From NCBI GenBank assembly GCA_000092065.1, contig CP000581.1: 64,000 bases of DNA; one strand, written 5' to 3'. Within the stretch, counting starts at the first letter, position 1. Every line of letters begins with the position of its first letter. Below, piece by piece: positions 55,898 through 64,000 of this stretch. The notes below the pieces were generated by a model. The model made no database searches. It was not told the DNA's origin and saw nothing but the letters and a program-made list of their open reading frames with translations. The DNA is from Ostreococcus lucimarinus. Lineage: Eukaryota. Both the position numbers and the translations under genes were made by a program.

Positions 55898-58444
55898 CTA
55901 AAGCTTCGAGCGGCGAATCTCCATCTTCGCTATGGTTTCTAAGTGCACCTCATCCGGCCCGTCGGCGAGGCGGAGGGTGCGGGCGCCGGCGTAGAGACGG
56001 GCAAGAGGAGTGTCCTGACTCACGCCGGCACCGCCGTGGATTTGGATGGCGGCGTCGATGACGGAAAGCGCTGCGGCCGGTGCGGCCACTTTACAGGCAG
56101 CCACGGCGCCTCGAGCGAGTTTGATACCTCGCGCGTCGAGTTCGTGCGCGGCTTGCAGCGTGAGCAATCGAGCGCCGTCCAGCGTGACGCGACATTGACC
56201 GAGTCTTTGGAGTACTGCCCCGTTTTCCGCGAGTGGTTTGCCGAAGGCGACTCGAGATTTTGCTCTCGCGCTTGCGAGTTCCAACGCGCGCTCACCCATG
56301 CCGATCAATCGCATGCAATGATGTAATCGTCCCGGACCCAGACGACCCTGGGCGATTTCAAAACCGCGCCCTTCGCCGAGTAATATGCTCGCCGCGGCGT
56401 CGACGCGCACATTGGTGAACGTCACCTCGGCGTGTCCGTGCGGGGCATCGTCGTACCCGAAAACGGTCAACGGACGAACGACGCGCACGCCCGGGGCATC
56501 CATCGGACACAGCACCATGCTCTGTTGGCGATGCTTCGCCACGCCCGATCCATCTTTTGCGGTTTTGCCCATGAAAATAATAACCTTACACCTCGGATCG
56601 CACGCCCCCGAGGTCCACCATTTGCGTCCGTTCAAGACGTAATCTGATCCTTCGCGCGCGATGGCGCTCTCGATGTTCGTCGCGTCCGAGCTCGCGACTG
56701 CGGGCTCGGTCATGGCGAAGCACGATCGTATTTCACCGGTGAGCAACGGGCGCAACCATCGCTCTTGCTGCTCTACCGAGCCGTATCGCAACAAAACCTC
56801 CATATTGCCCGTATCAGGCGCAGAACAATTGAATGCCTCGCTCGCCCAAACACTCGCGCCCATGACTTCGGCGAGATACGCGTATTCGAGATTCGTCAGT
56901 CCTGGACCCGCGAACAGCGTCGACTCTTCGCCGTCGTTGGGGCGAATTTTCAATAGCGCCGCGCTGTCGAGGGGCAGCCACAAGTTCCACAACCCAGCGC
57001 TTTTAGCCGCAGTCTTCAATGATTCCACCGCGGGCGATACGCTCCATCGTTCAGGCGTGATGGCGTGCGCCTCGAGTTCTTCCTCCGCCTTGTACACGTG
57101 CGCGTGCATGAAGTGCTTGAGCTTGTTCAGCAACGACGCCGCTTTGGCGCTCGGCTCAAATCCTACCGCGGTAGCTGACGTCGTTTCCGAGCGATGCGCG
57201 AGATCGTTGACACCCCGCGGCACGTTCGCACCCTTAACCACCAATAACGCGCGCCTGGCGAAGACGTCTACGAGCTGTCCCATTTCGTGCGCGTTTGCAC
57301 TCGACGCGTTGCCTTGCATCGCGCGCGCGCGCACCCCAGCGAGAATCGCAGCTCCTCGAAACAATGAAAGCGCGATATAAAACGGCCACGTCGTCGAGGC
57401 GCCTTCCGTCATAGGGTTCGGAAGCCCGCTTGCGCGCGACCAAGAGCGCACGTACGCGCCGACGTCTGGTACGCCTCGCGGTAAATTCGCGGGGTCCAGC
57501 GTAGGGTAGAGCTCCAACCCGGGAGGCAAATAATAAGGCAAACAATTGAACGCCACATCCGCGTATGGCGCACCCAGAGTGCTCAATTCCCAATCTAAAA
57601 CCGCCAAAACGTCGACTTGGTCGTCGCCGTTCGAGCGCGCGCGACTCAGGACCAAGTTGTCCAATCGAAAGTCGCCGTGCACCAACCGCCCGCTAATCTC
57701 TTTCGCCGGCGCGTTCGAGCGCAGCCAAGCGATCAAAGTCATCATGGATTCTTCTGCGTGTACGCCGACCCCCGGTCCCACGCTCGCTTCGTACTGTTTC
57801 GCCCACCGTTCCGTCTGTCGCTCGCCGTAGCGCTCGGCTTTACCGAAATCGCCCAACCCCACCGCGCGCGGGTCCACCGCGTGCAGCGTCCCGAGCGTTC
57901 GCGCCATCTTCTCGTACACCGCTCCGCGACGACGCTCCGAGCATTCCTCCATGCGCGGTTGCAAATAAATATCCCCATCGACGTAAGACATGACGTAAAA
58001 GGCCTCGCCCAGCACGCGCGCGTCCTCGCACAGCGCGAGCGCGTCGGGCGTCGGCACGTTCGTCGTACGCAGCGCCCGCATCACGGCGTATTCGCGCTCG
58101 ACCGCGTGCGCGGACTTCAGCAACGTTCCCGCCGGTTTCTTTCGCACGACGTACGTCCCGCAGACGTCACCGCGGCGCGTCAGCGCGAGGATCTTATACG
58201 TCGGGTTCGACTGTCCGTGCGCAAACTGGTCGACGTCGAGCGACGCGCACGCGCGAGGGAACCCGGGTACGCGCGCGCGACAGAAGCGCAGAAGCGCGGT
58301 CTCGTCGATCGGGTGGCGACATTTCCCCATCGCGCGCGTCGAAGTATGGGAACCGCGTTGGAGCGTGGTTTGGTTTTGCTTGTTATTACTCGCGACGGCG
58401 ACGGCCGCTACGAAAGTCTTGGTTGGCGCGCGAGCGGCGTGCAT
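55898..58444 (-). CDS. ACAD10/ACAD11-like fusion protein: N-terminal aminoglycoside-phosphotransferase (APH) kinase-like domain plus C-terminal acyl-CoA dehydrogenase
   Basis: The APH domain carries catalytic [13 protein letters not shown] and DWELSTLG. The ACAD domain includes the GGAGVSQD-type FAD region. A likely start is the internal [10 protein letters not shown]. Confidence 0.85.
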
Positions 58445-58463
58445 AGATAAGTGTGAAGAGATA

Positions 58464-59558
58464 TCAATCGTCTTCTTCTTGGAGCAAGAGATAGTAGGCG
58501 AACGCGCACAAGCCGATGAAGGCGAACGGCGCGGCGCCGGCGCCGTATTCTTGCTTTTTGACGTTGCGGAACGAGTTGCGATCGAGCGCGCCAGAATACT
58601 TCTTGCGCTGCGCCGGCGCCGCCGCGGGCTTGGGCTTTGCGGTAGCCTTCACCTTGGACCCGGATTTCTTCGCCGCGTACGATTTCTTCGCCGTCGATCG
58701 CTTGCTCTTGGCGGCGTACGGAGACGGCGCGTCGCGGTTGCGGAACGCTTCGAGTTCAGCCTCCTTCTCCTCGGGCGTCTTTGATCGAAGCGCCTCCATG
58801 CGCTCACGCTGCGCGTCACGTCTCGCGCGCGCCGCCGCGGTCTCTTCTTTCGCTTGGCGCGCTCTGGCTTGCAACAGTTCGCGTTGCGCCGCCCGTCGAG
58901 CCTCCACCGCCGCCATCGCCGCGGCGTCTCTCTCCTTAATCTGCGCCCGCAACTTCGCTTGCCTCTCGGAATCTCTCGATTGCACCTCCGCTTGTACCTT
59001 GGCCAACCGCGCCGCGTTTTCCTCGCGCTTCTGTTGCGCCCTCAACGTCGCGTCGCTCGGCCCGTTCGCGCTCGGCGCGCTCGTCTTCGTCTTCGTCTTC
59101 GTCTTCGTCTTCGTCGATCCCCCATCGTTCGCGTCCGCGCCCGCCCCGACGAGCGCGCGCCAATTCCACGATTCAAACTCCTTCAAATCCTTATCGTCCT
59201 CAAGCGCCGGCGCGACGGATTCTTCCGAGTCCTCCACCGCCCTCGCGTACAGCGTCGCCGCGTCGAGCGTCTCCGCGCTCGCGTCCCCCCCCGCCTCCTC
59301 CGCGCGCGCGTCCCCGACGCTCGACATCGCCAGCGCCGCGCTCGCGACGACCGCCGCGACGTCCCGCATCGTCCATCGCGCCTTTTCGTCCTCCCACCGT
59401 CCCGCGCGCGTCACCGCGCGTCGCGTCTCGTCGGCATTCGCATTCGCGTTCGCGTTCGATCGATGAATCCGACGCGTCGATTTCGTCGTTCGTCGCGCGC
59501 CGGACGCGCGTCCCGCGTCGGCGACGCCGCGCGTCGTCGCGCGCGTCGTCGCCCGCAT
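58464..59558 (-). CDS. Hypothetical coiled-coil protein with a C-terminal hydrophobic tail anchor
   Basis: ORF with a long charged helical region ([42 protein letters not shown]...). The terminal segment is [21 protein letters not shown] (KT)n segment comes from an acgaag repeat. Confidence 0.45.
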
Positions 59559-60020
59559 CCCGATCGTCGCTCGCCCTCGCGCGTCGCGACGCGTCGGCCG
59601 ATGTCGTCACCGGACGCGATCGTTCGCCGTTCGAGCGCGGTCGGTCGGTCGTTCGGTCGCGCGCGCGCGTCGCGTCGCGTCGTCCGTCGCGCGCGCGGGC
59701 GATCGCGCGCGGCGATCGGCGCGACGCGACGCGCGCGACCGCTCGCGATCACGCGTCGCGCGTCGCGCGCCGCGCGCGAATCTCGAGCCGGCGCCGTCGC
59801 GCCGGCGCGGCGTCCGGCGCGCGCGCGCGTCGCGACGACGCGACGTACGCGACGTTGGCGCACGCGAGGAGGGCGAGCGCGGCGTACGCGGCGCCCTTGC
59901 CCGGCGGGCGCGCCCGCGCGAGGACGTACCCGAACGTCGCGCCGTCCGTCGCGCGCGCGCGACGACGTGACGACGCGACGACGCGACGACGCACGACGCG
60001 ACGCGACGACGCGACGCGCG

Positions 60021-61013
60021 ATGGCGACGGCGCGCGCGCGACGCGCGAGCGCGTCCGCGTGGCGCGTCGCGGCGCTCGCGTGCGCGCTCGCGTGCGCGGC
60101 GTGCGGCGCGTACGCGGCGAGCGCGCGCGACGCGAGTTCGTTGTTCGACGGCGTCGCGAGGCGACGGCGCGGACGACGCGGGACGGCGCGCGACGGCGAC
60201 GGCGCGGACGACGACGACGGCGACGACGACGCGCGAGTTCCCGCGTCGTCGACGGTGTGGACGCGGCGCGCGCTGTCGGTGCTGGTGCCGCTGCGCGGCG
60301 TCGCGCGGCGGTGGTTGTTGGGCGAGGGCGCGCGCGCGAGCGGCGCGTTCGTCGATCCGTCGCTGCCGATATACGTCGCGGGCGCGACGTCGTGCCGAGC
60401 GCTGGAGCGAAGGCTGGGGAAAGAGCTGTGGGTGTGGTTCGTCGACGCGATCGGGATCGGGCGGGCGAGCGCGGGGCGGGCGAGGTTGACGAGCGTGCTG
60501 CGAGACGCGAGGACGACGGAGGCGTTGGACGAGACGTTCGATGAATTAGCGAAGAGGTACCCGCGAGGACGATGCGAGGATGACGACGATGAGGGCGACG
60601 CGCGCGCGGTGAGCCTGAGCGCGGAGGGGCTGATTAAGTTTAGCGACGGGATACGCGGGTCGATTCGGAACGTCATGGCGCTTCGACCGGAAGCCGTGGC
60701 GATTCAGCCCGCGAGCGCGAGCGAGCACGCCTTCTTGCGGGATAACTTTGATTTATTGTTCCCGTCCACCGATCCCTTGGATCGGTCGACGTTTCACGCG
60801 CTGGCGAAGCTCATTTTAGTGCGCCGCATCGTCAAGGCGTTGGTCACGGATTTCGGCGGCGTCGAACGCATTCGACGCGGACTCGCCGAGCCGCTCGTCA
60901 TCGACGTCCAAGTCGTCGTCGAGGGCGACGTGGTGTTTCGCGTGCACACGGTCGCGCCGAAAAGTGACGCCGTGAGCGGCGTGGGACAGCGTTTAGGGGT
61001 AATTTCCGAATAG
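60021..61013 (+). CDS. Hypothetical secreted or signal-peptide protein (330 aa)
   Basis: In-frame ATG at 60021 gives [32 protein letters not shown] (signal-peptide-like). The ORF track upstream of it (58854-60020) is low-complexity antisense to the previous gene. Confidence 0.4.
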   Translation: MATARARRASASAWRVAALACALACAACGAYAASARDASSLFDGVARRRRGRRGTARDGDGADDDDGDDDARVPASSTVWTRRALSVLVPLRGVARRWLLGEGARASGAFVDPSLPIYVAGATSCRALERRLGKELWVWFVDAIGIGRASAGRARLTSVLRDARTTEALDETFDELAKRYPRGRCEDDDDEGDARAVSLSAEGLIKFSDGIRGSIRNVMALRPEAVAIQPASASEHAFLRDNFDLLFPSTDPLDRSTFHALAKLILVRRIVKALVTDFGGVERIRRGLAEPLVIDVQVVVEGDVVFRVHTVAPKSDAVSGVGQRLGVISE

Positions 61014-61052: not shown

Positions 61053-62150
61053 GTGATGAGTCCGTCGCGCGCGCCATCCGCCGCCGCGCGCGACCGCGCG
61101 CGCGAGGCGCGCGACGCGTCCATCGGCGCGCGCGTCGCGTCGCGCATCTCGGATCTCGACGCCAGGACGTCGCGCGGTGTCTCGTCCGCGTCGAGTGTCA
61201 ACGGACTCGGTTTGTTTAGTGTTGCGACGCCGCACGCGCCGCGGACGCGCGCGATGTCGCCGAGCAAGCTCAGGGTGAACACGCAGCGTCTACATCGCGC
61301 GTATTCGAGCGGAGATTTAGGCCGCCGGCCGAAATTCGCCACCAACGTCGCGGTGCTGCTGCTGACAAACGTCGGGCTTTTGTCATTCTTCTTGGGCGGC
61401 GTGTACTTTGTGCTGTCGGGATGGGACCAAACCGCGACGCTGTGCGTCGTCGGGTACGTGTGCTGTGGTTTGGCGTTGGCGATACCGTCGATGACATTCT
61501 CGAAGTCGTTGGATGACGAGAAGGTGGCGTGCGATGACGATGAGGCCAAGCGCGACGAAGACTCGAGGGTGTTGTACCGCGTCTTCGCGGGCGTGCTCAA
61601 CGTCGCGGGTTTAATTTTAGGAATTCTCGGGTCGTTACTGTACAGTCCTGGATTTTGTAAGTGGGCAACGAGTGGGCGATTCGATCCGTACGTGAATGAT
61701 GCTGATTTCGAGACGTTGACCGATCGAGCGAACGTGATTTGGGCGATTTCATTTCTGCTGTTCCCAATCGGCAGCGGGCTCTTCTTGTACGACAGAAAAC
61801 GGACGTTGGAAAAGAGAGCTGCGTTGAAGCAGCGCCGCGCGCCTGGATATTTTTCGCAAGAGCTGTATTTATACACGTGGATTGAGATCGCGCTCGTCGT
61901 ATTCGCCGTCGGCGGCATGCTGTTTTGCTTTGACGACAACGAAGGCCTCCTCGTGGGCTCGCTCGTCCTCTTTTTTATAGGAGGCGGGATCAAGGCTGGT
62001 TTGATGTTCCACGAATTGAGGATGTTCTTTGGTGGCACGTGCGATGCAATGCGTGAGGATCGCGACTCCGACGATTCAGACGAGCGATCGCCGCTGATTG
62101 GGGATAGGGATAACATGTCGGACACGTCGTCCTTGCTCGGCGACGCCTGA
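61053..62150 (+). CDS. Hypothetical polytopic membrane protein (365 aa) with an acidic C-terminal tail; locally lower GC
   Basis: Several hydrophobic helices: VAVLLLTNVGLLSFFLGGVYFVL, CVVGYVCCGLALAIP, LNVAGLILGILGSLLY and IALVVFAVGGMLFCF. The antisense S-rich ORF 60794-62125 is rejected. Confidence 0.5.
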   Translation: MMSPSRAPSAAARDRAREARDASIGARVASRISDLDARTSRGVSSASSVNGLGLFSVATPHAPRTRAMSPSKLRVNTQRLHRAYSSGDLGRRPKFATNVAVLLLTNVGLLSFFLGGVYFVLSGWDQTATLCVVGYVCCGLALAIPSMTFSKSLDDEKVACDDDEAKRDEDSRVLYRVFAGVLNVAGLILGILGSLLYSPGFCKWATSGRFDPYVNDADFETLTDRANVIWAISFLLFPIGSGLFLYDRKRTLEKRAALKQRRAPGYFSQELYLYTWIEIALVVFAVGGMLFCFDDNEGLLVGSLVLFFIGGGIKAGLMFHELRMFFGGTCDAMREDRDSDDSDERSPLIGDRDNMSDTSSLLGDA

Positions 62151-62206: not shown

Positions 62207-63868
62207 TTAGGCTACAAACGGACGACTATTCTTGTTTCGAGCCGTCAGCACCTCGACCCCATCGGACGTGATGAGCAGCGTGTGCTCGTACTGCGCGCTT
62301 CGCGCTCCGTTCGTCGTCACCGCCGTCCATCCATCCGGCCAGTGCACGACTTTGTGCGACGATGACTCGTTAAACATGGGCTCGATCGTGAACGTCATTC
62401 CTTCCTTCATCACACCGATCGCCTTATTGCGAGCGTAGTGTGGAACGTTCGGGGCGCAGTGGAAAAGCTGGCCGATGCCGTGCCCGCAAAAGTCCTTCAC
62501 GCTCGCGTATCCGCCTCGGGAAGCTTCCTCGGCGATGATTTCGCCAAGGTCTCTGAATCGTCGACCGGGTCGGCAGTACGCGATGGCCTTTTCCAGGGCT
62601 TTGCGCGTGCAGTCCATGAGCTTCTGCGCCGCTTTCGACTTGGCTCCGCCCTTGCCGACGTAATACGTTTCATTCAAATCGCCGTGGTATCCGTTCAGGC
62701 GAACCGTGATGTCCAAATTGACGATGTCGCCGTCCTCGAGAGGGCGCGCGTCGGGAATGCCGTGACACACGACCTCGTTCACGGATGTGCACAGCGACTT
62801 TGGAAAACCCATGTAGTTGAGCGGCGACGGATACGCGCCGTTTCCAACCGTCACCGCGTGACATATACGATCGAGCTCCTCCGTCGTGACGCCGGGCTCG
62901 AGCGCCCACGCCACTGTATCCATCACGTGTCGCGCCAAAGAACACGCCGCGCGCATCGCCTGTCGAGCCTCATGCGGCTTTACCTCTACGGTGCTTTGGA
63001 ATCGTGACCCAAACTCCTCTTCCGGCCATCCAGAACTGGCGTAATCGGGAGGATTCAACCCGCTCGGGTACGATCGTTTCGCGGTCGTCTTTCGCGGTCG
63101 TAGCTTCCCCGTCCACGCGAACGTGGGCATCTTCCCTGACCTCGAGCTTCGCTTCGCGCCCGCGCTTTGCACGTGAAACGTAAAATCATTTTTGTCCCCG
63201 TCCCACCAATCCATCGTTTTTCGCACTTCATCCAACGTTCGCCACTTCCCCGCCCGCGCCGCCTCGAGTCGAGCCGCCGTCTCCCTCGCGCGCGCGTCCT
63301 CGTTTCCACCCGCCGTCTCCGCGACCTCCCTCGACGCCTCGACGTCCGACCCCCAGGACTCATCGCTGTCGCATCCTTCGTCGTCGCTCGAGTCCACCGC
63401 GCGGATTTCGTGCTCCGTCGTTCCGCGCAGCTCGACCGAGCCGCCGCGCGCGCTAAAGCGCGCGTCCTCGCCCTCGAACACGTGCACGAACGACACGCTC
63501 TCGTGGACGTCGGGAATCAACCGCGCGATGACGAACGAAGGTCCGGAGTCGCATCGCGCGCGCACGGTGACGCGCTTCGCGCCCTCGCGCGCGGAGAGCA
63601 GCGTCACGCCCGTGCACTCGAAGGACGTCTCGCACGCGCCGCCGAGCGTGCGGTGACGGAAATACCGCGGCGCGTCGTCGTCGACTCGAAGCGCGAACGA
63701 CATGATCGAACGTCGACTCGCGGACGCGACGTTCGCGCGGCGTCCAGGCGTCGATCGAGCGCGTCGACGTTCGCGACGGCGCGGGACGCGGAGTGTCGCC
63801 TCGAACCTCTCTCTACTCACACAAAACGCTACGCTACGCGCCCGCGCGACGCCCGCGCGACGCCCCAC
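62207..63868 (-). CDS. Methionine aminopeptidase 1 (M24A, type I) with an unusual N-terminal extension of about 270 aa
   Basis: The catalytic domain is collinear with MetAP1: AYPSPLNYMGFPKSLCTSVNEVVCHGIPDARPLEDGDIVNLDITV..GYHGDLNETYYVG...HGIGQLFHC...TFTIEPM. The N-terminal 270 aa lack the usual MetAP1 zinc fingers. They contain a beta-rich segment (MSFALRVDD...SFVIARL...SFVHVFEGEDARFS) followed by an acidic tract. Confidence 0.85.
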   Translation of the reverse strand: MGRRAGVARARSVAFCVSRERFEATLRVPRRRERRRARSTPGRRANVASASRRSIMSFALRVDDDAPRYFRHRTLGGACETSFECTGVTLLSAREGAKRVTVRARCDSGPSFVIARLIPDVHESVSFVHVFEGEDARFSARGGSVELRGTTEHEIRAVDSSDDEGCDSDESWGSDVEASREVAETAGGNEDARARETAARLEAARAGKWRTLDEVRKTMDWWDGDKNDFTFHVQSAGAKRSSRSGKMPTFAWTGKLRPRKTTAKRSYPSGLNPPDYASSGWPEEEFGSRFQSTVEVKPHEARQAMRAACSLARHVMDTVAWALEPGVTTEELDRICHAVTVGNGAYPSPLNYMGFPKSLCTSVNEVVCHGIPDARPLEDGDIVNLDITVRLNGYHGDLNETYYVGKGGAKSKAAQKLMDCTRKALEKAIAYCRPGRRFRDLGEIIAEEASRGGYASVKDFCGHGIGQLFHCAPNVPHYARNKAIGVMKEGMTFTIEPMFNESSSHKVVHWPDGWTAVTTNGARSAQYEHTLLITSDGVEVLTARNKNSRPFVA

Positions 63869-64000
63869 CGTCGAACGACGCGCACCTCGTTCGTCACCGC
63901 GCCCCGTTCGAGGCGCGTCGTCACGACGTCGCCTCGCGCGTCGTCTCCGGCGCGTCGCCGTTCCACCTCGCCCACCGTTGAAAATTATACGCCTGCACGT

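What the first reader, a model, noticed from the sequence alone, without database searches (positions are those of the whole stretch)
62207..63868. Methionine aminopeptidase 1 with an atypical 270-aa N-terminal extension
Eukaryotic MetAP1 normally carries either N-terminal zinc fingers (cytosolic form) or an organellar presequence. Here the catalytic domain is preceded by about 270 aa with a beta-rich block (SFALRV...SFVIARL...SFVHVFEGEDARFS) followed by an acidic DSSDDEGCDSDESWGSD tract. That is reminiscent of nucleoplasmin/HD2-like N-domains, and there is no C6H2 finger. This could be a domain fusion, or two adjacent genes merged by a stop-free high-GC frame.
Basis: partly seen in the sequence, partly recalled or inferred. 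Interest (0 to 1): 0.5.

Follow-up and report, generated by a model that had tools for sequence, protein, structure and literature searches.

The report
Nucleoplasmin-like domain fused to methionine aminopeptidase 1
This Ostreococcus gene encodes the enzyme that trims the first methionine from new proteins, but its usual ribosome-docking zinc finger is replaced by a nucleoplasmin-type domain and an acidic tail, a combination kept across related marine picoalgae and not found in the literature searched.

Summary
The coding sequence is 62207..63703 on the minus strand (498 aa, single exon), starting at MSFALRV. The 55 codons up to the GTG at 63868 are 5' non-coding sequence.

Architecture:
- aa 1-99: nucleoplasmin-like (NPL) beta-sandwich. 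The AF2 model has pLDDT 89. The 50 Foldseek PDB matches listed are all nucleoplasmin folds, led by AtFKBP43 NTD (TM 0.80/0.88). A family profile hits AtFKBP53 NTD at E 8e-6.
- aa 100-134: disordered acidic arm with a conserved SDESWGSD motif.
- aa 135-170: two helices.
- From about W167: the conserved MetAP1 linker.
- aa 249-498: an intact M24 catalytic domain with all metal ligands.

The catalytic domain is the cytosolic MAP1A/human MetAP1 type, but the zf-C6H2 finger found in all other green-lineage MAP1A is absent. The fusion is conserved, with synteny, in O. tauri and in more distant picoalgal relatives from marine metagenomes. A complete MMETSP transcript ORF carries it. The O. lucimarinus reference protein (XP_001415725.1, partial) omits it.

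Function of the module is inferred: probable pentamerisation and docking of basic clients or the ribosome, replacing zf-NACbeta recruitment. I found no paper describing this architecture. I rate it a new variant of a known kind, of moderate interest.

The parts
62207..63703 (-). Complete single-exon CDS of NPL-MetAP1 (498 aa plus TAA stop at 62207-62209)
   Evidence: ORF list. The exact 498-aa product is called on an independent Logan contig. It has a continuous alignment to human MetAP1.
63407..63703 (-). Nucleoplasmin-like (NPL) domain, aa 1-99, eight beta strands
   Evidence: AF2 N-domain model: pLDDT 88.9, pTM 0.79. Foldseek PDB: AtFKBP43 NTD 7wim E 8e-8, TM 0.80/0.88, rmsd 1.6-2.0; then HDT1-4, FKBP53, NO38, NPM1, NLP, FKBP39. 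Profile versus PDB sequences: 6j2z E 8e-6, 7wim E 7e-4. The window sequence alone scores 14.9-16.4 bits against Pfam NPL, below the gathering score of 23.4. 13 of 25 orthologues hit NPL, best E 7e-10.
63464..63475 (-). Acidic loop EGED (aa 77-80) inside the NPL core, aligned with the A1 tract DDDDE of AtFKBP53
   Evidence: HMMER alignment to 6j2z. The A1 tract is described in PMC7026663. Residues checked.
63302..63406 (-). Disordered acidic arm, aa 100-134 (11 D/E, 2 K/R, pI 4.05)
   Evidence: pLDDT below 50 for aa 99-130 in the full-length model. Composition. An acidic tract is present at this position in all orthologues, with variable length.
63344..63367 (-). Conserved SDESWGSD motif (aa 113-120) in the acidic arm; S116 and W117 are nearly invariant
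   Evidence: Alignments A1/A2. Residues checked.
63194..63301 (-). Two-helix linker, aa 135-170, with invariant W154 and W167
   Evidence: AF2 helices 135-151 and 157-167, block pLDDT 74-94. Invariant columns. dN/dS 0.16-0.32.
62960..63193 (-). Ancestral eukaryotic MetAP1 linker, aa 171-248 (FHVQ..GAKRSSRS..MPTFAWTGKLRP...), basic, pI 10.3
   Evidence: Aligns with the post-zinc-finger linker W-LYC..RG..R..P.F.WTG.LRP of Chlamydomonas, Klebsormidium, Marchantia and Brassica MAP1A. Also aligns with human MetAP1 residues 80 onward.
62210..62959 (-). M24A catalytic (pita-bread) domain, aa 249-498. Metal ligands D331, D342, H408, E441, E473; catalytic H314 and H415.
   Evidence: Pfam PF00557 E 4e-52. 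Human MetAP1 2b3h E 4e-101. These residues are invariant in 25 orthologues and verified.
63704..63868 (-). 5' non-coding stretch wrongly included in the mechanical ORF
   Evidence: No codon periodicity. In orthologous loci the stretch has stop codons (L006, L007) and indels that are not multiples of three (alignment with L006). It lies in the 217-nt spacer after the upstream MPC gene.
63921..64000 (-). 3' end of the upstream neighbour, a mitochondrial pyruvate carrier (MPC) gene that runs off the window
   Evidence: Called gene with PF03650 on L001 127-324, mapped onto the window. The same MPC-then-MetAP1 order is seen in L002, L006 and L007.

Best explanation
This is the cytosolic-type methionine aminopeptidase 1 (MAP1A orthologue) of Ostreococcus lucimarinus. 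It is encoded by one exon and translated from the ATG at 63703. In it the ancestral N-terminal zf-C6H2 zinc finger has been replaced by a plant-type nucleoplasmin-like (NPL) domain, a short acidic disordered arm with a conserved SDESWGSD motif, and a two-helix linker.

Shown here: the fold and family of the N-domain; the intact catalytic site; the loss of the finger; and the conservation of the fusion across several divergent picoalgal lineages.

Inferred, step 1: like every NPL domain solved so far, the N-domain forms a homopentamer, so five active MetAP1 domains hang from one ring on flexible acidic tethers.

Inferred, step 2: the NPL/acidic module takes over the targeting role of the lost finger. 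In animals that finger binds the NACbeta C-terminal tail at the ribosomal exit and touches NatD on histone-translating ribosomes. Here targeting would work by avidity, and by the acidic arm with its aromatic anchor holding basic partners such as nascent histones, ribosomal proteins or basic ribosomal surface proteins. The enzyme would still work mainly in the cytosol on nascent chains.

The confidence of 0.75 applies to the identity and architecture (about 0.9 on their own) taken together with the general idea that the module replaces the finger as an oligomerising or targeting device. My separate estimates are about 0.6 for pentamer formation and about 0.3 for docking of basic clients.
For: MetAP1 identity and activity:
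- Pfam M24 E 4e-52.
- Human MetAP1 E 4e-101, against mitochondrial MetAP1D E 1e-73.
- All five metal ligands and both catalytic His are invariant.

NPL identity:
- AF2 pLDDT 89.
- The 50 Foldseek PDB matches listed are all nucleoplasmin folds.
- Profile versus PDB: 6j2z E 8e-6.
- 122 of 144 profile hits in 1.84 billion proteins are Pfam NPL, 34 of them with FKBP_C.
- The nearest non-MetAP relatives are plant FKBP53 and a Pyramimonas NPL-FKBP.
- More distant homologues start MSxFFGIEV, close to the MVFWGLEI start of the Pyramimonas NPL-FKBP.

Finger replaced:
- Other green-lineage MAP1A carry PF15801.
- Homology with them resumes near W167.

One gene:
- GC3 is 0.89 in the NPL part. dN/dS is 0.43 (NPL) and 0.32 (helices) against L006.
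- A complete MMETSP transcript ORF carries both parts.
- MPC synteny is conserved.

Cytosolic role:
- It is the only O. tauri MAP1A-type protein among the top 120 hits.
- The acidic arm has only 2 K/R, and no NLS-like pattern occurs in the N-terminal 200 aa.

Role of the lost finger: PMC12716425.

Pentamer, acidic arms and histone binding of NPL domains: PMC4414354 and PMC7026663.
Against: - Pentamerisation, client binding and localisation were not tested; only monomer models could be made.
- The window's own sequence is below the Pfam NPL gathering score.
- The NPL part evolves fast: dN/dS 0.43 against a close relative, 0.73 against O. tauri with saturated sites, and 47-50% aa identity. Constraint on it is therefore weak.
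- The pore His of FKBP39/HD2-type NPLs is Glu29 here.
- The acidic arm (35 aa) is much shorter than the tails of more than 100 residues in known NPL chaperones.
- There is no transcript or peptide evidence for Ostreococcus itself.
- An acidic arm would not bind rRNA, so direct ribosome docking through it is not obvious.
Confidence: 0.75

Rival explanations
1. The NPL/acidic module does what it does in NPL-FKBPs and HD-tuins. It takes the protein to the nucleus or nucleolus as a histone or ribosomal-protein chaperone. The MetAP1 domain then acts there on specific clients, or as a passenger, while general cytosolic methionine removal is left to MetAP2.
For: - All characterised NPL proteins are chromatin or nucleolar histone chaperones, and NPL-FKBPs pair the same module with an enzyme domain.
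- An A1-like acidic loop and an acidic arm are present.
- O. tauri has a gene annotated as MetAP2 (PMC8002553).
- MetAP1 is the MetAP that processes histones H2A and H4 in human cells.
Against: - No basic or NLS-like stretch follows the NPL domain. K+R is 2 in aa 100-134, and no bipartite pattern occurs in the N-terminal half.
- The arm is short.
- This is the only MAP1A-type enzyme seen for O. tauri among the top hits.
- An O. tauri line with an insertion in the MetAP2 coding region is viable. This suggests another cytosolic MetAP is active, though inactivation was not shown.
Confidence: 0.2
2. The N-terminal ORF is not part of the MetAP1 protein. Either two adjacent genes are joined by a stop-free GC-rich frame, or translation starts at the internal Met192, as the partial reference model implies.
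For: The O. lucimarinus reference protein XP_001415725.1 covers only aa 184-489. High-GC DNA gives long spurious ORFs; the 55-codon upstream extension of this very ORF is one.
Against: - The fused frame is kept in relatives down to 25-30% identity in the N-terminal part, with conserved W154, W167 and Q179 bridging the two parts.
- Met192 is replaced by L, V or P in orthologues.
- GC3 is 0.89 and dN/dS below 1 in the N-terminal part.
- The N-terminal part folds as a known domain.
- A complete MMETSP transcript ORF contains both parts.
- There is no spacer between the parts, whereas the real spacer to the MPC gene is 217 nt.
- O. tauri's curated model is full length.
Confidence: 0.03
3. The extension is an organellar targeting sequence, as in plant MAP1B/C/D and human MetAP1D.
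For: Eukaryotic MetAP1 paralogues without zinc fingers are usually organellar (established knowledge; MetAP1D appears).
Against: - The first 99 residues form a compact beta-sandwich starting at residue 2 and are followed by an acidic tract. That is the opposite of a basic, unstructured presequence.
- The catalytic domain is closer to human MetAP1 (E 4e-101) than to MetAP1D (E 1e-73).
- It carries the WTGxLRP linker shared with zf-C6H2-bearing plant MAP1A and human MetAP1.
Confidence: 0.02

Closest known systems
Canonical eukaryotic cytosolic MetAP1 (human METAP1, yeast Map1, plant MAP1A)
   Same: Type-1 M24A catalytic domain with all metal ligands. The basic linker with the WTGxLRP motif is shared. 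Human MetAP1 matches at E 4e-101 over aa 184-496, and plant MAP1A is 55-58% identical.
   Different: The zf-C6H2 domain (PF15801) is missing. In animals that domain binds the NACbeta tail and contacts NatD. About 165 aa of NPL domain, acidic arm and helices occupy its place.
NPL-FKBP histone chaperones (AtFKBP53, AtFKBP43, yeast Fpr3/Fpr4, Drosophila FKBP39)
   Same: Same layout: an N-terminal NPL beta-sandwich, then an acidic disordered arm, then a C-terminal enzyme domain that acts on polypeptides. They give the best structural and sequence matches to the N-domain.
   Different: The enzyme is a methionine aminopeptidase, not a prolyl isomerase. The charged arm is 35 aa without basic blocks, against more than 100 residues. 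The pore His is not kept. Pentamer formation and histone binding are untested here.
Plant HD-tuins (HDT1-4 / HD2)
   Same: NPL fold at the extreme N-terminus, followed by acidic sequence. TM 0.73-0.77 to HDT1-4.
   Different: HD-tuins end in a C2H2 zinc finger and have no enzyme domain of established activity.
Nucleoplasmin / nucleophosmin (NPM1-3, NO38, NLP)
   Same: Eight-stranded jelly-roll core, TM 0.72-0.80.
   Different: Sequence relationship is weaker than to the plant NPL clade. Nucleoplasmins carry no C-terminal enzyme domain.

Membership tests
Methionine aminopeptidase type 1 (MEROPS M24A, Pfam PF00557) | Pita-bread catalytic domain recognised by the family profile | tested here: met
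   PF00557 E 4e-52, 177 bits against a cutoff of 23. Human MetAP1 E 4e-101.
Methionine aminopeptidase type 1 (MEROPS M24A, Pfam PF00557) | Five dinuclear-metal ligands (D, D, H, E, E) and the two catalytic His | tested here: met
   D331, D342, H408, E441 and E473 plus H314 and H415 are present and invariant in 25 orthologues. Equivalence to human D229/D240/H303/E336/E367 comes from the alignment and from established knowledge.
Methionine aminopeptidase type 1 (MEROPS M24A, Pfam PF00557) | Type 1 rather than type 2 (no helical insert in the catalytic domain) | tested here: met
   The alignment to human MetAP1 over 313 residues has only small gaps. Archaeal type-2 MetAP chains score only E 1e-14 to 1e-15.
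Eukaryotic cytosolic MetAP1 (MAP1A type) | N-terminal zf-C6H2 zinc finger (PF15801) | tested here: not met
   No PF15801 hit at E up to 1. No CxxC in aa 1-192. Other green-lineage MAP1A have it.
Eukaryotic cytosolic MetAP1 (MAP1A type) | Conserved linker W..Y....G..R....P.F.WTG.LRP before the catalytic domain | tested here: met
   Alignment with Chlamydomonas, Klebsormidium, Marchantia, Coccomyxa and Brassica MAP1A.
Nucleoplasmin-like (NPL) domain family (Pfam PF17800) | Match to the family sequence profile | tested here: inconclusive
   The window sequence alone scores 14.9-16.4 bits, E 0.016-0.044, below the gathering score of 23.4. However, 13 of 25 orthologues match, best E 7e-10. The orthologue profile hits AtFKBP53 NTD at 8e-6 and recovers 122 Pfam-NPL proteins.
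Nucleoplasmin-like (NPL) domain family (Pfam PF17800) | Eight-stranded beta-sandwich (jelly-roll) fold | tested here: met
   AF2 model with 8 strands, pLDDT 88.9. Foldseek probability 1.00, TM 0.80/0.88 to 7wim. The 50 matches listed are all NPL or nucleoplasmin cores.
Nucleoplasmin-like (NPL) domain family (Pfam PF17800) | Domain at the extreme N-terminus, followed by an acidic, disordered tract | tested here: met
   The fold starts at residue 2. aa 100-134 have pI 4.05 and pLDDT below 50. The rule is stated in PMC4414354.
Nucleoplasmin-like (NPL) domain family (Pfam PF17800) | Homopentamer (or decamer) formation | not testable with these tools
   Only monomer prediction was available. Pentamers are reported for all studied NPL and nucleoplasmin cores.
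Nucleoplasmin-like (NPL) domain family (Pfam PF17800) | Histone binding / chaperone activity | not testable with these tools
   Needs pull-downs or nucleosome assembly assays.
Nucleoplasmin-like (NPL) domain family (Pfam PF17800) | Pore His-x-Ser/Thr motif on beta3 (a feature of the FKBP39/HD2 subgroup; fungi have Arg-x-Thr) | tested here: not met
   The window has E29-C-T31 at the aligned position. One metagenomic homologue has R at this position and another keeps H. PMC4414354 does not count this motif among the defining features of NPL domains.

The most novel reading that the evidence does not exclude
In these picoalgae the NAC- and zinc-finger-dependent way of bringing MetAP1 to nascent chains has been replaced by a ring of five MetAP1 enzymes built on a histone-chaperone scaffold. 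The acidic arms, with a conserved Trp anchor, would capture very basic nascent or newly made proteins such as histones and ribosomal proteins. Methionine removal would then be physically coupled to chaperoning. That would make a fourth functional class of NPL proteins and a new mode of co-translational enzyme recruitment.
Probability: 0.2. Interest if true: 0.7.

Novelty: new variant of a known kind. Interest (0 to 1): 0.5.

Why it matters
MetAP1's zinc finger has recently been shown to be its handle on NAC at the ribosomal exit and a contact to NatD during histone processing. A whole lineage of abundant marine algae has exchanged that handle for a histone-chaperone-type oligomerisation domain. 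This is a natural experiment on how N-terminal processing enzymes are recruited.

It also adds a fourth domain architecture to the NPL family. The paper that defined the family lists only nucleoplasmins, NPL-FKBPs and HD-tuins.

On the practical side, the O. lucimarinus reference protein is a partial model that hides the domain. Metagenomic gene callers also mis-call the intron-containing relatives. Automated annotation therefore under-reports the fusion.

O. tauri is genetically tractable, so the predictions can be tested.

Tried and rejected
- **Merged genes or internal start.** Rejected on conservation, codon statistics, transcript ORF and fold.
- **Transit peptide.** Rejected.
- **Upstream GTG start at 63868.** Rejected.
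- **Hidden upstream zinc-finger exon.** Rejected. The MPC gene ends 217 nt upstream on the same strand, and the NPL fold begins at residue 2.
- **N-terminal part alone as a homologue query.** It found only close relatives.
- **Third homologue search, with the profile.** It added no named taxa. Apart from O. tauri, O. lucimarinus and Crustomastix, the lineage labels of the homologues are therefore my inference.
- **Representative search.** It was repeated with unedited substrings.
- **AFDB Foldseek search.** It was meant to give named UniProt organisms, but the library was not available.
- **Literature searches.** Searches for nucleoplasmin with methionine aminopeptidase, and for Ostreococcus or Micromonas MetAP, gave nothing on this architecture.
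- **Peptide evidence.** Searches of the held (partly truncated) supplements of three O. tauri proteome and phosphoproteome papers found only the PA2G4-like M24 protein ostta20g00110. This gene did not appear.
- **O. tauri 'MetAP2' insertion line T3.** I could not tell whether it lies in this gene or in a true MetAP2; no coordinates are given in the text.
- **NLS scan.** A simple pattern scan found nothing in the N-terminal half. This is weak negative evidence only.
Full report
**Observation**

Pfam places Peptidase_M24 at aa 249-479 of the ATG-started protein (E 4e-52). It finds no zf-C6H2, and gives a sub-threshold NPL match at aa 24-90 (14.9-16.4 bits, gathering score 23.4). Human MetAP1 residues 80-381 align to aa 194-496 (E about 1e-100); mitochondrial MetAP1D scores E 1e-73.

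**True start**

The mechanical ORF starts at a GTG, but the gene starts at the ATG at 63703 (MSFALRV, 498 aa). Four lines of evidence support this.
- All orthologues start at the same Met.
- The 55 upstream in-frame codons have GC1/2/3 of 0.73/0.75/0.65. The NPL part has 0.67/0.52/0.89.
- In the orthologous loci L006 and L007 the upstream stretch has in-frame stops. Its alignment with L006 has indels that are not multiples of three.
- The upstream same-strand neighbour, a mitochondrial pyruvate carrier gene, ends 217 nt before the ATG.

The true CDS is therefore 62207..63703, in a single exon.

**Source**

The O. lucimarinus CCE9901 protein XP_001415725.1 ("predicted protein, partial", 306 aa) is 100% identical to aa 184-489. 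The window is therefore O. lucimarinus or an identical strain, and the reference model lacks the N-terminal 183 aa. O. tauri's model (515 aa, 72% identical) is full length.

**What the N-terminal part is**

Sequence evidence:
- 13 of 25 related MetAP1 proteins match Pfam NPL (best E 7e-10), and two carry it as a precomputed domain.
- A profile of 15 N-terminal regions hits the solved NPL domains of AtFKBP53 (6j2z, E 8e-6, profile positions 3-106) and AtFKBP43 (7wim, E 7e-4).
- The same kind of profile, run against 1.84 billion representative proteins, gives 179 hits at E up to 1e-3. Of 144 examined, 122 are Pfam NPL and 34 also carry FKBP_C.
- The nearest named non-MetAP hits are FKBP53 of Riccia, Physcomitrium and Sorghum, and a Pyramimonas NPL-FKBP.
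- More distant homologues begin MSxFFGIEV, close to the MVFWGLEI start of the Pyramimonas NPL-FKBP.

Structure evidence:
- The AF2 model of aa 1-104 has pLDDT 88.9, pTM 0.79 and eight strands.
- The 50 Foldseek PDB matches listed are all nucleoplasmin folds. AtFKBP43 NTD leads (E 8e-8, TM 0.80/0.88, rmsd 1.6-2.0), followed by HDT1-4, FKBP53, NO38, NPM1, NLP, PfNPM and FKBP39.

**Full anatomy**

| Residues | Part | Notes |
|---|---|---|
| 1-99 | NPL core | Contains an EGED loop aligned with the A1 tract of FKBP53 |
| 100-134 | Disordered acidic arm | pI 4.05, 2 K/R; near-invariant S116-W117 in SDESWGSD |
| 135-170 | Two helices | Invariant W154 and W167 |
| 171-248 | Basic MetAP1 linker | Homology to canonical green-lineage MAP1A resumes at about W167 (W-xYxxxxG..R...P.F.WTG.LRP) |
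| 249-498 | Catalytic domain | D331, D342, H408, E441, E473, H314 and H415 all present and invariant |

The NPL/acidic/helical block (about 165 aa) sits exactly where Chlamydomonas, Klebsormidium, Marchantia, Coccomyxa and Brassica MAP1A have the zf-C6H2.

**One gene, not two**
- The fused frame is conserved in Ostreococcus clades (47-93% identity in the N-terminal part). It is also conserved in two more distant groups of marine relatives (25-34%).
- I take those groups to be Micromonas-like and Bathycoccus-like. This rests on composition and similarity only.
- In a Tara scaffold of the first group (L002), exon 1 (MSPFFGIEVAPGEPAYFRPDD...) is separated from the rest by a 100-nt GT..AG phase-1 intron inside the NPL domain. 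The MPC gene is again the upstream neighbour.
- A complete MMETSP transcript ORF (P0303, 556 aa) carries NPL, acidic arm and MetAP1 together.
- Met192, the suggested internal start, is L, V or P in orthologues.

dN/dS by region:

| Region | Versus close relative L006 | Versus O. tauri |
|---|---|---|
| NPL | 0.43 | 0.73 |
| Acidic arm | 0.64 | 0.67 |
| Helices | 0.32 | 0.16 |
| MetAP part | 0.13 | 0.05 |

The module is therefore coding but evolves several times faster than the enzyme.

**Distribution**

A family-specific NPL HMM matches 23 of the top 120 MetAP1 homologues. None of those 23 carries zf-C6H2 in the precomputed domains. The land-plant and other green-algal MAP1A entries do not match the NPL HMM, and almost all carry the finger. 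Crustomastix (Dolichomastigales) and a related sequence have neither the finger nor a detectable NPL.

**How it probably works**

Shown here: an intact type-1 MetAP of the cytosolic lineage joined to an NPL fold.

From the literature:
- NPL and nucleoplasmin cores form pentamers, are followed by acidic arms and bind histones. Only three architectures have been described (nucleoplasmin, NPL-FKBP, HD-tuin) (PMC4414354, PMC7026663).
- The MetAP1 zinc finger binds the NACbeta C-terminal tail and contacts NatD on histone-translating ribosomes (PMC12716425).

Inference:
- The N-domain pentamerises the enzyme.
- The acidic arm, with its aromatic anchor and CK2-like serines, docks basic partners and so replaces zf-NAC recruitment.
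- I favour a cytosolic, nascent-chain role for three reasons: this is the only MAP1A-type protein seen for O. tauri; the arm is short and lacks basic or NLS-like blocks; and an O. tauri line with an insertion in a gene annotated as MetAP2 is viable.
- A nuclear or nucleolar chaperone-type role, as for the NPL-FKBPs, remains a serious rival.

**Novelty**

Literature searches found no description of an NPL-MetAP fusion. Some homologues do carry both Pfam domains in precomputed annotation, so the databases hold the fusion implicitly. I rate it a new variant of known kinds: a MetAP1 with a new N-terminal module, and a fourth NPL architecture. Interest is moderate.

**Limits**
- Structure prediction was monomer only.
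- There is no Ostreococcus transcript or peptide evidence.
- Taxon labels for the metagenomic homologues are inferred.

Noticed in passing
window 62207-63703 (-), compared with NCBI XP_001415725.1: The O. lucimarinus CCE9901 reference protein is a 306-aa 'predicted protein, partial', identical to aa 184-489 only. The public model therefore lacks the whole NPL/acidic part and the last 9 residues.
   Followed up: yes
L002 3724-3990 (Tara scaffold); proteins P0021, P0029, P0025: In the more distant homologues I take to be Micromonas-like, a 100-nt GT..AG phase-1 intron splits the NPL domain. Metagenomic gene callers either read through it (spurious 35-45 aa inserts in P0021 and P0029) or start at a downstream Met (P0025 and P0018 begin MLASL...). 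This hides the domain.
   Followed up: yes
P0040 (Crustomastix stigmatica, MMETSP0803) and P0036, N-terminal about 150-180 aa: These Dolichomastigales-type MetAP1 proteins also lack the zf-C6H2 finger. They show no NPL signal either, with Pfam or with the family-specific HMM. Their N-terminal region is of unknown fold, so the finger may have been lost before the NPL domain was gained.
   Followed up: partly
hits P0126-P0269 of the representative search: Some proteins recovered by the NPL profile also match other Pfam families. Examples, one protein each, are ubiquitin, Tudor-type domains, PAP_assoc/poly(A) polymerase, OST-HTH/LOTUS and an esterase. NPL may therefore be a more promiscuous N-terminal module than the three published architectures suggest. 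I did not check that these proteins also carry NPL.
   Followed up: no
window 63921-64000 (-) and beyond the window end; L001, L002, L006, L007: A mitochondrial pyruvate carrier (PF03650) gene lies directly upstream on the same strand. The MPC-then-NPL-MetAP1 order is conserved from Ostreococcus to the more distant Tara relative L002.
   Followed up: partly
window 61053-62150 (+) versus 62207 (-): A conserved 365-aa ORF with hydrophobic stretches and no Pfam family converges on the MetAP1 gene. Only 56 nt separate the two stop codons, so the two 3' UTRs must be very short or overlap.
   Followed up: no
window 58854-61013, both strands: This stretch has the highest GC in the window (0.70 for 58001-60000). 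It carries long overlapping Arg/Ala-rich ORFs on both strands (719, 421 and 229 aa). These look like mechanical products of composition.
   Followed up: no
O. tauri chromosome 1 (L007 = CAID01000001.2, 50097-57644): PMC8002553 reports a viable O. tauri line (T3) with a vector inserted in the coding region of a chromosome-1 gene called 'MetAP2'. The NPL-MetAP1 gene is also on chromosome 1. The text gives no coordinates, so I could not tell whether it is the same gene.
   Followed up: partly
supplement of PMC10540734: The only M24 'methionine aminopeptidase' entry found in the held, truncated part of that O. tauri proteome table is ostta20g00110. It is a PA2G4/EBP1-like protein, not this gene.
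   Followed up: no
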